A DNA stretch of 64,000 nt from Spirosoma sp. GTDB lineage: Bacteria; Bacteroidota; Bacteroidia; Cytophagales; Spirosomataceae. The notes below the pieces were generated by a model. The model had not been told where the DNA came from. It worked only from the letters and a program-made list of their open reading frames with translations, and ran no database searches. The stretch covers positions 191 to 64,190 of the forward strand of contig JACMPG010000012.1 of assembly GCA_014377625.1 (NCBI GenBank), written 5' to 3'. Shown piece after piece: positions 60,432-63,055 of the stretch. The translations under genes were made by a program, and so were the position numbers. Within the stretch, counting starts at the first letter, position 1. Every line of letters starts with the position of its first letter.

Positions 60432-60499
60432 TGTCATCCGACGAAGGAGGGAACTTACGGATTGCCAGTATACGAGATTCCTCCTTCGTCGGAATGACA
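60432..60499. repeat. Solo TGTC-type palindrome
   Basis: TGTCATCCGACGAAGGAGG...CTCCTTCGTCGGAATGACA. Confidence 0.85.
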
Positions 60500-60504
60500 A
60501 AAAA

Positions 60505-61041
60505 ATGACCAACTACACCATCTGCGTTTTTACGTCGAACTCGATTGGGCTGCTCAACCGCATCACCATCATTTTCACGCGCCGACGCATCAATATCGAA
60601 AGCCTGACCGTATCGGAAACCGAACGTAAAGGCGTATCGCGGTTCACGATTGTCATCAAACACGATTCGCGCGAAGAGGTCGAGAAGCTTGTCCGGCAGA
60701 TTCGCAAGATTGTGGAGGTACTGGCTGTGTTTGGGTATCTGAACGACGAGATTGTTTACAACGAAATCGCATTGTATAAACTTTCAACGCCCCTCGGCAG
60801 CAAAACGCTCGATGTAGAGACCATCAACAAAAAACACAAAGCCTGGGTCGTGTATTGGGGTTTAGATTACGTTGTGGTCGAGAAAACGGGTAACGAAACC
60901 GAGATTTTTGACTTTCTGGCGTACCTGCGCCAACAGCACGAAATTCTGGAATTTGTCCGGTCGGGCCGTATAGCCGTCGGTAAAACCGAGCAGGGTTTGG
61001 TCGAGTACCTTCCCGAAGCAGACTGGGAATACACGTTGTAA
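60505..61041 (+). CDS. ilvN: Acetolactate synthase small subunit
   Basis: ACT domain GLLNRI..IF.RRRINIESL; EFVRSGRIA. Confidence 0.93.
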   Translation: MTNYTICVFTSNSIGLLNRITIIFTRRRINIESLTVSETERKGVSRFTIVIKHDSREEVEKLVRQIRKIVEVLAVFGYLNDEIVYNEIALYKLSTPLGSKTLDVETINKKHKAWVVYWGLDYVVVEKTGNETEIFDFLAYLRQQHEILEFVRSGRIAVGKTEQGLVEYLPEADWEYTL

Positions 61042-61052
61042 TCTTTTTTGTC

Positions 61053-61176
61053 TGTTATCCCGCTTTTTGTCATCCCAACGAAGGAAGGATCGTGCGTCTT
61101 GATAACCAGATGATTGGCTGAACTCGTGATCCCTCCTTCGTCGGGATAACAAAAGACGGAATGGCAAAAAAAGCAG
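61053..61176. repeat. Left TGTC-type palindrome flanking GIY-YIG gene
   Basis: TGTCATCCCAACGAAGGAAGGATC-loop-GATCCCTCCTTCGTCGGGATAACA; direct repeat of 61525-61663. Confidence 0.9.
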
Positions 61177-61212
61177 GATGATGAACCGGTCGGATTACAA
61201 ATAGAAAGAAAC

Positions 61213-61515
61213 ATGCACCAATACTCCTTCTACGTGTACATAACCACCAATCCTGAAAAAACAGTATTGTACACAGGCATGACCAACGATCTGGTTCGGC
61301 GGATGGATGAGCATTATGAATCTCGGGGAAATATCGAAAAATTTGCCGGACGTTATTTTTGCCATACCCTAATTTATTGGGAGTTTCACCAATATGTCCG
61401 CAACGCTATTGACCGCGAAAAAGAAATAAAAGGCTGGCGACGCGAGAAGAAGGTTGCGCTGATTGAATCATTTAATCCAGAATGGAAGCCGCTAAATGGC
61501 GAAATTCAACCATAA
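61213..61515 (+). CDS. Small GIY-YIG nuclease (YhbQ/UPF0213-like)
   Basis: YVYI...LYTGMTNDL.RR..EH, AI.REKEIKGWRR.KK..LI...NPEW. Confidence 0.92.
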   Translation: MHQYSFYVYITTNPEKTVLYTGMTNDLVRRMDEHYESRGNIEKFAGRYFCHTLIYWEFHQYVRNAIDREKEIKGWRREKKVALIESFNPEWKPLNGEIQP

Positions 61516-61524
61516 TGCTGCTTT

Positions 61525-61663
61525 TGTCATCCCGCTTTTTGTCATCCCGACGAAGGAGGGATCATGCGTCTTGATAACCTGATCACTGGCTGAACTCGTG
61601 ATCCCTCCTTCGTCGGGATGACAAAAAAAGGGATGATAAAAGACGGAATGGCAAGAAAAGCAG
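61525..61663. repeat. Right TGTC-type palindrome flanking GIY-YIG gene
   Basis: 24-bp perfect IR 61540-61563/61600-61623 with nested outer IRs out to 61513/61670. Confidence 0.9.
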
Positions 61664-61705
61664 AGCATTAAATTACCCGAATTTTTATCACCAAATACAA
61701 ACCAA

Positions 61706-62749
61706 ATGGCACAAATTGACTTCGGCGGAACCGTCGAGAACGTAGTAACCCGCGACGAGTTTCCGCTCGAAAAAGCCCTTGAAACCCTCTCAACCGAGAC
61801 CATCGCCGTTATTGGCTATGGTGTACAAGGCCCCGGCCAGTCGCTCAATATGCGCGACAATGGCTTCAACGTCATTGTTGGGCAGCGCAAAGGCAAAACC
61901 TACGACAAAGCCGTTGCCGACGGCTGGGTGCCGGGCGAAACCCTTTTTGAAATTGAGGAAGCCCTCGAACGCGGTACCATCATCTGCTTCCTGCTGTCTG
62001 ATGCCGCCCAGATTGAACTCTGGCCAACGGTAAAAGCCGCCCTGAAACCCGGCAAATCATTGTATTTCTCACACGGCTTCGGCGTAACGTACAAAGAGAA
62101 AACCGGCATCATACCCCCCGCCGACGTTGACGTATTTCTGGTGGCTCCCAAAGGGTCGGGTACGTCGCTGCGCCGGATGTTTGTAGAAGGCAAAGGGCTG
62201 AATTCTAGCTTCGCCATCTATCAGGATGCCAGCGGTCACGCCCGCGAGAAGTGCATCGCCATGGGCATTGGCGTAGGGTCGGGCTATTTGTTCGAAACTA
62301 ATTTCTACAAAGAAGTTACCTCCGACCTGACCGGCGAACGTGGTACGCTGATGGGGGCCATTCAGGGCATTTTTGCCGCTCAGTACGACGTGTTACGCGC
62401 CAATGGCCACAGCCCGTCGGAAGCGTTTAACGAGACCGTCGAAGAACTGACGCAGTCGCTGATGCCGCTCGTGGCCGAAAACGGTATGGACTGGATGTAC
62501 GCCAACTGTTCCACCACCGCCCAGCGTGGTGCCCTCGACTGGTGGAAACCCTTCCGCGACGCGACAAAGCCCGTTTTTGAGCAGCTCTACAACTCCGTAA
62601 AAAGCCAGGAACAGGCCGAAATCAGCATCACCCGCAACTCGCAGCCCGACTACCGCGAAAAACTCGAAGTAGAACTCGCCGAGCTCCGCGATTCTGAGAT
62701 GTGGCAGGCCGGTGCCGCCGTGCGTAACCTCCGCCCGGAGCGTAGCTGA
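61706..62749 (+). CDS. ilvC: Ketol-acid reductoisomerase
   Basis: IGYGVQG, FSHGF, VAPKG, SDLTGERG.LMG, CSTTAQRG. Confidence 0.96.
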   Translation: MAQIDFGGTVENVVTRDEFPLEKALETLSTETIAVIGYGVQGPGQSLNMRDNGFNVIVGQRKGKTYDKAVADGWVPGETLFEIEEALERGTIICFLLSDAAQIELWPTVKAALKPGKSLYFSHGFGVTYKEKTGIIPPADVDVFLVAPKGSGTSLRRMFVEGKGLNSSFAIYQDASGHAREKCIAMGIGVGSGYLFETNFYKEVTSDLTGERGTLMGAIQGIFAAQYDVLRANGHSPSEAFNETVEELTQSLMPLVAENGMDWMYANCSTTAQRGALDWWKPFRDATKPVFEQLYNSVKSQEQAEISITRNSQPDYREKLEVELAELRDSEMWQAGAAVRNLRPERS

Positions 62750-62773
62750 GCTAAACCCGCTCAATAGCCTTAC

Positions 62774-62818
62774 CTATCGGGTAGCAAGCAACCGTCAGGC
62801 CAGCTCGTTACCCGATAG
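62774..62818. repeat. Imperfect palindrome after ilvC
   Basis: ctatcgggtagcaagc/gctcgttacccgatag (2 mismatches). Confidence 0.55.
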
Positions 62819-63055
62819 CTTCTTTATACGCATCTGACCACCAAGTAGTTCGGTCAGGTAAAAAGTCTGCTGGACAGATTGGTTATTTAGCCGAAAGTAG
62901 TTTTATTGCATTAGCTAATCAGGCCGACACTACTCCCGTTTGAGGGTAACGCAACTACCGACACAGTGGGAATTGACGAAACTTTGCCAAAAAAAACGAG
63001 GAGTTTCGTAAGCACAGATGTTACCAGCCAGCATAAACAACCAAATTTGAATAAA

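What the first reader, a model, noticed from the sequence alone, without database searches (positions are those of the whole stretch)
61053..61670. GIY-YIG nuclease gene bracketed by directly repeated long palindromes: candidate REP-cassette mobile system
Seen: a lone 100-aa GIY-YIG gene fills the ilvN-ilvC gap with a ~125-140 bp element on each side. Both elements have the stem TGTCATCCC(G/A)ACGAAGGA(G/A)GGATC, nearly the same ~36-nt loop (gtgcgtcttgataaccagatgattggctgaactcgt vs atgcgtcttgataacctgatcactggctgaactcgt) and the same tail (AAAAGACGGAATGGCAA..AAAGCAG), in the same orientation. A solo copy with the same stem but a different loop sits at 60432-60499. No transposase or integrase is present. 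Known: GTAG REPs are processed by HUH RAYT transposases encoded between REPs, and GIY-YIG domains act in homing endonucleases and structure-specific (Slx1-like) nucleases. Inference: this is a RAYT-like unit in which a GIY-YIG enzyme recognises its own hairpin/cruciform, spreads the palindrome and moves by nick-induced recombination into solo palindromes; recombination between the flanks would leave a solo 'empty site'.
Basis: partly seen in the sequence, partly recalled or inferred. Interest (0 to 1): 0.8.

Follow-up and report, generated by a model that had tools for sequence, protein, structure and literature searches.

The report
Ssn-type nuclease gene with hairpin repeats
A small, intact DNA-cutting enzyme gene sits between two copies of a hairpin repeat scattered about 70 times through this Spirosoma genome; the pairing matches the Ssn nuclease and hairpin-repeat system published in 2025, so it is a new example of a known kind, with useful extra evidence that it comes and goes.

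Summary
A 100-aa GIY-YIG ORF (61213-61515) lies between ilvN and ilvC. Two direct copies of a ~117-nt palindromic element flank it, and a solo copy lies between ilvB and ilvN.

It is not a new kind of system. The protein is the reciprocal best match of the N. gonorrhoeae 94-aa SsnA counterpart (40% identity, E 6e-20). That gene is itself surrounded by 16 NTS hairpins. Chenal et al. 2025 (PMC11893778) showed that Ssn nucleases cut single-stranded DNA beside such hairpins. They found most ssn genes flanked by them, and they raised the RAYT/REP/IS analogy themselves.

Each arm of the long palindromes is one small hairpin: GTC-AT-NNN-GA-S-GNA-S'-GA-N'N'N'-AT-CT. Both of its stems covary. The published SRM search pattern does not match it.

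Findings from 54 Spirosoma genomes:
- Intact ssn is patchy (21 genomes) and lies in at least 6 genomic contexts.
- The ilvN-ilvC gap is empty in 34 genomes, holds a solo doublet in 6, a cassette in 5 and a remnant in 1.
- Hairpin counts have a median of 70 with ssn and 6 without.

This supports mobility, but the mechanism remains untested. The scan has reached the same Ssn reading on other genomes before.

The parts
60432..60499 (.). Solo hairpin doublet between ilvB and ilvN: an inverted pair of SRM-like arms (the left arm carries a 1-nt deletion) around a 20-nt spacer unrelated to those of the other two elements
   Evidence: (I7); DNA fold -24.1 kcal/mol, z -7.7
60506..61041 (+). ilvN (acetolactate synthase small subunit), the left neighbour of the cassette
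61053..61169 (.). Left flanking element: a partial arm, then an inverted SRM doublet (arms 61069-61090 on + and 61129-61150 on -), then a tail
   Evidence: (D1, D3)
61213..61515 (+). ssn-like gene: a 100-aa single-domain GIY-YIG nuclease, intact; the invariant or near-invariant residues Y9, Y20, R30, H34, E69 and N88 are all present
   Evidence: PF01541 E 3.9e-14; 40% identity, E 6e-20 to the N. gonorrhoeae SsnA counterpart, reciprocal hit E 3.9e-14; conserved columns
61525..61641 (.). Right flanking element: a direct repeat of the left element at 89% identity with the same spacer; perfect arms at 61541-61562 (+) and 61601-61622 (-)
   Evidence: DNA fold -35.5 kcal/mol, z -11.6
61630..61663 (.). 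Tail shared with 61143-61176 (91% identical); part of the duplicated block
   Evidence: D3
61706..62749 (+). ilvC (ketol-acid reductoisomerase), the right neighbour of the cassette

Best explanation
The ORF encodes a member of the Ssn family of small single-domain GIY-YIG endonucleases. The characterised Ssn enzymes bind a short hairpin in single-stranded DNA and cut a few bases upstream of it. The long palindromes around the gene are inverted doublets of this lineage's version of that hairpin: GTC, a 5-bp outer stem AT-NNN, a tandem GA/GA internal loop, a 1-2 bp inner stem closing a GNA loop, then AT-CT. At least 33 such doublets plus about 30 unpaired arms are spread over this draft genome. 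By analogy with the mapped Neisseria cleavage site, the enzyme would cut in the T-run just 5' of GTCAT, which is the outer edge of a doublet on each strand (inference). The gene with its flanking doublets behaves as a cassette that is gained and lost. The gene-less doublets behave like its non-autonomous relatives, as REPINs relate to RAYTs or MITEs to insertion sequences. Shown here: family membership by sequence, the hairpin and its covariation, the association with the gene, and the insertion polymorphism. Inferred: that this enzyme cuts these hairpins, that it drives their spread, and how.
For: Family: BLASTP to the 94-aa N. gonorrhoeae ORF that sits among 16 NTS repeats gives 40% identity and E 6e-20. 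That ORF's only hit in this genome is our gene, E 3.9e-14. The best solved structure is a UPF0213 protein at only E 0.0095. Published biochemistry and the gene-repeat association are in PMC11893778. Hairpin: a pattern that does not demand pairing finds 74 sites in this genome; the outer NNN are fully complementary in 63 and the inner pair is Watson-Crick in 71 (C-G 40, G-C 28), with three outer stem types. A backwards-read control of a closely similar pattern found 0 sites in this genome. Association: 19 of 21 full-length Spirosoma homolog loci have such hairpins on both sides of the gene and the other two on one side. Across Bacteroidota, 42 of 80 genome loci and 51 of 80 metagenome loci have at least one perfect hairpin within 300 bp. 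Density is 2.0-2.6 per kb near the gene against 0.27-0.38 per kb further out. Dynamics: hairpin counts have a median of 70 in 21 ssn-positive and 6 in 33 ssn-negative Spirosoma genomes. The sister pair G000/G042 has 70 against 4. The gene lies in at least 6 genomic contexts and its tree clusters by context. One copy is on a Spirosoma oryzicola plasmid. The ilvN-ilvC gap is empty in 34 genomes, holds a solo doublet in 6, a cassette in 5 and a remnant in 1. A doublet at a second site is absent from three relatives.
Against: No biochemistry exists for this protein or for any Bacteroidota homolog. The published degenerate SRM pattern does not match these arms: 0 hits in the window and 16 in the genome. 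CDD assignment to cd10448 could not be run. Several genomes are rich in hairpins but have no ssn (G020 107, G050 72, G041 67, G046 62, G053 56), so spread or persistence does not strictly need a resident gene. After allowing for relatedness, only about 5 of 8 independent pairs differ in the expected direction, with none opposite (median p about 0.06). About 40% of wider homolog loci show no perfect hairpin nearby. GIY-YIG nucleases are not known to join DNA ends.
Confidence: 0.85

Rival explanations
1. Domesticated host function without mobility by Ssn. As proposed for Neisseria, the nuclease restricts incoming or exposed single-stranded DNA that carries the hairpin (transformation, conjugation, ssDNA phages). 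The hairpins would then be host-maintained marks that spread by ordinary recombination.
For: This is the only function shown experimentally for any family member (PMC11893778). The gene is single-copy and intact, with all conserved residues. Within each genomic context it looks inherited by descent.
Against: ssn is present in only 21 of 54 species of one genus, in at least 6 contexts and once on a plasmid. That is unlike a housekeeping function. Hairpin numbers swing from 0 to 507 between congeners. Spirosoma is not known to be naturally competent (my own knowledge).
Confidence: 0.25
2. Homing-type selfish gene that targets pre-existing palindromes. The hairpin doublets would be spread by something else (a RAYT-like Y1 transposase or replication slippage), and ssn merely inserts into or beside them after cutting them.
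For: Several hairpin-rich genomes lack ssn. Y1 transposase genes exist in this genome. The left and right elements here share their spacer at 89% identity, as if one target element had been duplicated. Solo doublets occupy the same ilvN-ilvC site in six other species.
Against: None of the four Y1 transposase loci has an SRM-like arm within about 1.5 kb; the two searched for inverted repeats carry other hairpins. Hairpin number follows ssn presence. Across the phylum the commonest layout puts the gene inside one inverted pair, as in an autonomous element.
Confidence: 0.12
3. The palindromes are ordinary transcription terminators or mRNA-stabilising hairpins of the ilv operon, and the nuclease gene lies there by chance.
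For: They are strong intergenic hairpins inside an operon.
Against: On both strands the hairpin is preceded by a T-run and followed by an A-run, the reverse of an intrinsic terminator. The same arms flank homologous genes throughout the phylum. Rfam gives only far-sub-threshold miRNA-precursor matches.
Confidence: 0.03

Closest known systems
Ssn nucleases with NTS/SRM hairpin repeats (SsnA of Neisseria meningitidis, CDD cd10448; Chenal et al. 2025, Nat Commun 16:2388, PMC11893778)
   Same: A single-domain GIY-YIG protein of 94-100 aa, 40% identical and a reciprocal best hit. The gene is flanked on both sides by a GTCAT-headed hairpin that ends in AT-C. The hairpin is repeated tens to hundreds of times in the genome. 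Inverted pairs about 60-80 nt apart also occur around the N. gonorrhoeae gene.
   Different: The hairpin is built differently: a 5-bp outer stem, tandem GA/GA, and a GNA loop closed by 1-2 bp, against an 8-bp stem with a 4-nt loop in NTS. The published SRM search pattern misses it. Nearly all copies here are inverted doublets with a variable, itself palindromic spacer. No biochemistry exists for this lineage.
RAYT transposases with REP/REPIN/BIME repeats (Nunvar 2010; Ton-Hoang 2012; Bertels and Rainey 2011, last from my own knowledge)
   Same: One gene per genome flanked by its own palindromic repeats. The repeats form inverted doublets dispersed in intergenic DNA, and repeat number is tied to gene presence.
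   Different: The enzyme is a GIY-YIG nuclease, not a HUH/Y1 transposase. The Y1 genes of this genome carry no SRM-like arms.
IS200/IS605 single-strand 'peel and paste' elements and MITE/IS pairs
   Same: Subterminal hairpins recognised as single-stranded DNA. Across the phylum the commonest layout is hairpin(+)-gene-hairpin(-), with gene-less short versions elsewhere.
   Different: No transposition has been demonstrated, no target duplication was seen at the G000/G042 junctions, and no strand-joining activity is known for GIY-YIG enzymes.
UPF0213/YhbQ small GIY-YIG proteins (PDB 1zg2)
   Same: Similar size and the same fold family.
   Different: Only a marginal sequence match (E 0.0095). No repeat association is known to me (my own knowledge).

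Membership tests
Ssn nuclease family (cd10448) | Single-domain GIY-YIG protein of about 90-100 aa with no extra DNA-binding domain | tested here: met
   100 aa; PF01541 covers residues 6-79 and no other family matches
Ssn nuclease family (cd10448) | Sequence homology to SsnA at the paper's criterion (tblastn E < 1e-10) | tested here: met
   Against the N. gonorrhoeae 94-aa ORF embedded in 16 NTS: tblastn E 6e-11 in a 7.3-Gb database, BLASTP E 6e-20, reciprocal E 3.9e-14. I take this ORF to be the SsnA counterpart from its length and NTS context, not from an annotation.
Ssn nuclease family (cd10448) | Assignment to CDD model cd10448 or placement inside the Ssn clade of the GIY-YIG tree | not testable with these tools
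   No CDD search is available and NCBIfam has no model that matches. Indirect support: far closer to SsnA than to UPF0213.
Ssn nuclease family (cd10448) | Conserved GIY-YIG catalytic residues (two Tyr, Arg, His, metal-binding Glu, Asn) | tested here: met
   Y9, Y20, R30, H34, E69 and N88 are invariant or nearly invariant among homologs. All six align with identical residues in the Neisseria protein.
Ssn nuclease family (cd10448) | Gene flanked by GTCAT-headed hairpin repeats (SRM) that are also dispersed in the genome | tested here: met
   Doublets lie on both sides. The genome holds 74 sites, against 0 for a closely similar pattern read backwards. The same holds in 19 of 21 Spirosoma homolog loci.
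Ssn nuclease family (cd10448) | Repeats match the published degenerate SRM pattern | tested here: not met
   0 matches in the window and 16 in the genome. That pattern is a search tool derived from 29 genomes, not a definition of the family. The head, the hairpin and the AT-C tail are shared.
Ssn nuclease family (cd10448) | Cuts single-stranded DNA, and not dsDNA or RNA, next to its hairpin | not testable with these tools
   Needs purified protein and oligonucleotide substrates
RAYT/REP system | HUH/Y1 transposase encoded between the repeats | tested here: not met
   The flanked gene is GIY-YIG. The genome's four Y1_Tnp loci have no SRM-like arms.

The most novel reading that the evidence does not exclude
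The Ssn gene plus its hairpin doublets is a true mobile element family. The autonomous form would be hairpin(+)-ssn-hairpin(-), and the gene-less doublets would be its MITE/REPIN-like derivatives, mobilised through single-strand cuts by a GIY-YIG nuclease and completed by host replication or repair. To my knowledge that would be a class of prokaryotic transposable element without a conventional transposase. The 2025 paper only raised this as a hypothesis. The Spirosoma genus, with filled, solo and empty sites and 0-507 copies per genome, would be a natural system in which to test it.
Probability: 0.4. Interest if true: 0.75.

Novelty: new member of a known kind. Interest (0 to 1): 0.4.

Why it matters
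On its own this is one more Ssn nuclease with its hairpins, a pairing already published. Three things may be useful to people working on that family. First, the Bacteroidota hairpin has a distinct architecture, with tandem GA mismatches and a GNA loop, and the published search pattern misses it. Published counts of gene-repeat association may therefore understate this phylum. Second, one genus supplies a clean comparative series of empty, solo-doublet, cassette and decayed states at one conserved site. It also shows sister species with 70 against 4 copies. This is the kind of evidence needed to decide whether Ssn elements are mobile. Third, if the enzyme's specificity follows its hairpin, it is a further candidate for the ssDNA-cutting toolbox that the paper proposes.

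Tried and rejected
- The published SRM degenerate pattern gave no match to these arms, so I defined the local motif from the data instead.
- NCBIfam has no model for the protein.
- Rfam at a permissive threshold gave only sub-threshold miRNA-precursor hits on the long hairpins, which I take as chance.
- RAYT as mobiliser: Y1 transposase genes exist in the genome but have no SRM-like arms nearby.
- A second small GIY-YIG family (contig C60 and its orthologues) is conserved in hairpin-rich genomes that lack ssn. It is 20% identical to ours and, in six of seven loci, has no SRM arms nearby, so it is not an alternative partner.
- Terminator reading: rejected because the T/A-run polarity is wrong.
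- Stem-protein covariation: not seen, since three stem types coexist with one gene.
- Target-site duplication: none recognisable at the G000/G042 junctions. The relatives are only 70-80% identical in DNA, so the intergenic comparison at another site was coarse.
- The metagenome scan returned nothing closer than 74% identity.
- The paper's supplementary tables are not held, so I could not check whether Bacteroidota were among its 29 curated genomes.
- No structure prediction was run, because the Pfam and SsnA matches made it unnecessary.

Full report
**Observation**

ORF 61213-61515 on the + strand encodes 100 aa and matches Pfam GIY-YIG at E 3.9e-14. It fills the gap between ilvN (60506-61041) and ilvC (61706-62749).
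- Elements 61053-61169 and 61525-61641 are direct repeats of 117 nt, 89% identical with the spacer included. Their tails are 91% identical.
- Each element is an inverted pair of the arm TGTCATCCC(G/A)ACGAAGGA(G/A)GGA. The window has five arm matches, and none in 100 shuffles.
- A solo pair with another spacer lies at 60432-60499, between ilvB and ilvN.
- As single-stranded DNA all three fold far better than shuffled controls.

**Genome**

The assembly is a Spirosoma draft of 5.33 Mb in 378 contigs, 85% complete. It has one copy of this gene. Its other GIY-YIG matches are an unrelated small protein on contig C60 and a 609-aa open frame on C216 that I take to be UvrC from its length.

**What the palindromes are made of**

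Genome-wide, the arms form a family with the structure GTC-AT-NNN-GA-S-GNA-S'-GA-N'N'N'-AT-CT. A pattern that does not require any pairing finds 74 sites in this genome. A closely similar pattern finds 70, and none when read backwards.
- The outer NNN are fully complementary in 63 of the 74 sites. There are three main stems: GCT 34, TCC 20 and CCC 7.
- The inner pair is Watson-Crick in 71 of 74 sites, switching between C-G (40) and G-C (28).
- The loop is GAA in 65 sites. The 5' flank is a T-run and the 3' flank is CT.

This intra-arm covariation is independent of the long palindrome, so the conserved unit is a 22-nt hairpin within each arm. Arms occur mostly as inverted doublets: 33 pairs plus 30 unpaired arms, several of them at contig ends. 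The spacers are 23-51 nt long, differ in sequence between copies, and in many copies are themselves partly palindromic.

**Literature**

A full-text search led to Chenal et al. 2025 (PMC11893778).
- That paper defines the Ssn family of 94-aa single-domain GIY-YIG proteins (CDD cd10448).
- It shows for four homologs that they cut single-stranded DNA, and not dsDNA or RNA, a few bases upstream of a hairpin repeat (NTS, more generally SRM). The repeat starts with CGTCAT.
- It reports that 71% of ssn homologs have an SRM in their flanks and 42% have one on both sides.
- It notes that the NTS-ssnA-NTS layout resembles insertion sequences and the RAYT/REP/BIME relationship.

**Membership**
- PLSDB holds an N. 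gonorrhoeae chromosome filed as a plasmid. Our protein hits one place in it.
- The ORF there is 94 aa and is surrounded by 16 NTS within 1.5 kb on either side, many as inverted pairs about 76 nt apart.
- BLASTP gives 40% identity and E 6e-20. The reverse search finds only our gene in this genome, E 3.9e-14.
- The best solved structure is a UPF0213 protein at E 0.0095.
- The conserved Tyr, Tyr, Arg, His, Glu and Asn positions are present.
- The published degenerate SRM pattern does not match the arms. That is a difference in hairpin architecture, not in plan.
- CDD itself could not be run.

**Association beyond this genome**
- 19 of 21 full-length Spirosoma homolog loci have the hairpins on both sides of the gene and the other two on one side.
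- In 80 named Bacteroidota genome loci, 42 have at least one perfect hairpin within 300 bp of the gene. In 80 metagenome loci, 51 do.
- Hairpin density is 2.0-2.6 per kb next to the gene and 0.27-0.38 per kb further out.
- Inner-loop variants such as C-GCA-G, GC-GAA-GC and AC-GCA-GT keep their pairing across the phylum.
- The commonest layout is one + arm upstream and one - arm downstream, so the gene sits inside a single inverted pair. The divergent Spirosoma clade (G031, G044, G039) has this layout as well.

**Dynamics within the genus**
- Intact ssn is present in 21 of 54 genomes. It lies in at least six genomic contexts, and the gene tree clusters by context.
- One copy is on a Spirosoma oryzicola plasmid. 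One copy carries an in-frame TGA and one is a 3' remnant.
- Hairpin counts per genome range from 0 to 507. The median is 70 with ssn and 6 without (Mann-Whitney p 5e-6, not corrected for relatedness).
- On a rough tree built from 1 kb of ilvB and ilvC, the sister species G042 has 4 hairpins and no ssn, against 70 here. Of eight independent pairs, about five go the expected way and none the opposite (median p about 0.06).
- There are exceptions: five genomes have 56-107 hairpins and no ssn.
- The ilvN-ilvC gap is empty (37-106 bp) in 34 genomes. It holds a solo doublet, often decayed, in 6 genomes, the ssn cassette in 5, and a remnant in 1.
- Six further genomes hold something else in that gap. 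Five carry unrelated cargo (reading frames that look like HicA/HicB or an NTF2-like protein). One, G033, holds 169 bp of unrelated sequence.
- A doublet at another site in this genome is absent from three relatives.

**Rivals**
- Y1 transposase genes exist in this genome but carry no SRM-like arms.
- The T-run-before, A-run-after polarity argues against terminators.
- Rfam finds nothing meaningful.
- A host ssDNA-restriction role, as shown in Neisseria, is not excluded and could coexist with mobility.

**Verdict**

This is a genuine feature and a new member of a published kind. Two things are added here: a lineage-specific hairpin architecture, and comparative evidence for gain, loss and spread. 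Mechanism and enzyme specificity remain untested.

Earlier notes of this scan, which I read only after my own analysis, reached the same Ssn reading on other genomes, including another Bacteroidota genome.

Noticed in passing
ilvN-ilvC gap in loci L047 (G018), L066 (G050), L052 (G014), L046 (G020), L037 (G047): The same intergenic gap holds other small cargo in other Spirosoma species. G018, G050 and G014 have two short reading frames that look like a HicA/HicB toxin-antitoxin pair. G020, G047 and G014 have an NTF2/SnoaL-like ORF. These names come from reading the translations, not from a family search. The gap appears to be an insertion hotspot.
   Followed up: partly
window 60506-61041 (ilvN): IlvN is only 40-56% identical to its orthologues in 50 congeners and 74% to the closest (G042). 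The adjacent IlvB and IlvC are 83-95% and 87-98% identical. I did not test whether ilvN evolves fast throughout the genus or has been replaced between the two hairpin elements.
   Followed up: no
G018 and G009 (whole genomes); L020:1501-1797: Hairpin counts reach 507 in G018 and 324 in G009. The G009 ssn copy carries an in-frame TGA, so a large expansion coexists with a possibly broken gene.
   Followed up: no
L003:239-451 (G000 contig C60) and L080, L082, L084, L086, L090: A second small GIY-YIG protein family (starting MHTVYIIYSPS...) is conserved in Spirosoma. It is 20% identical to ssn and, in six of seven loci, has no hairpin arms nearby.
   Followed up: partly
L029 (NZ_CP119140.1, 2.17 Mb): PLSDB lists two complete N. 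gonorrhoeae chromosomes as plasmids (NZ_CP119140.1 and NZ_CP119142.1). This mislabelling gave access to the Neisseria ssnA locus.
   Followed up: yes
L260:1366-1404 and L261:1366-1478, 1939-2017 (G000 contigs C176, C367): Y1 (IS200/IS605 or RAYT-like) transposase genes with their own, unrelated hairpins nearby. This may be a separate repeat system in the same genome.
   Followed up: partly
G000 doublet spacers, e.g. contigs C5:18427-18503, C252:34461-34536: In about a third of the spacers, GTAG appears shortly after the arm and CTAC shortly before the opposite arm. GTAG is the tetranucleotide typical of RAYT-type REPs (Nunvar 2010).
   Followed up: no
window 62770-62830: A different imperfect palindrome, unrelated to the GTCAT arms, follows ilvC and precedes the AT-rich SIR2-like ORF that starts at 62966.
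   Followed up: no
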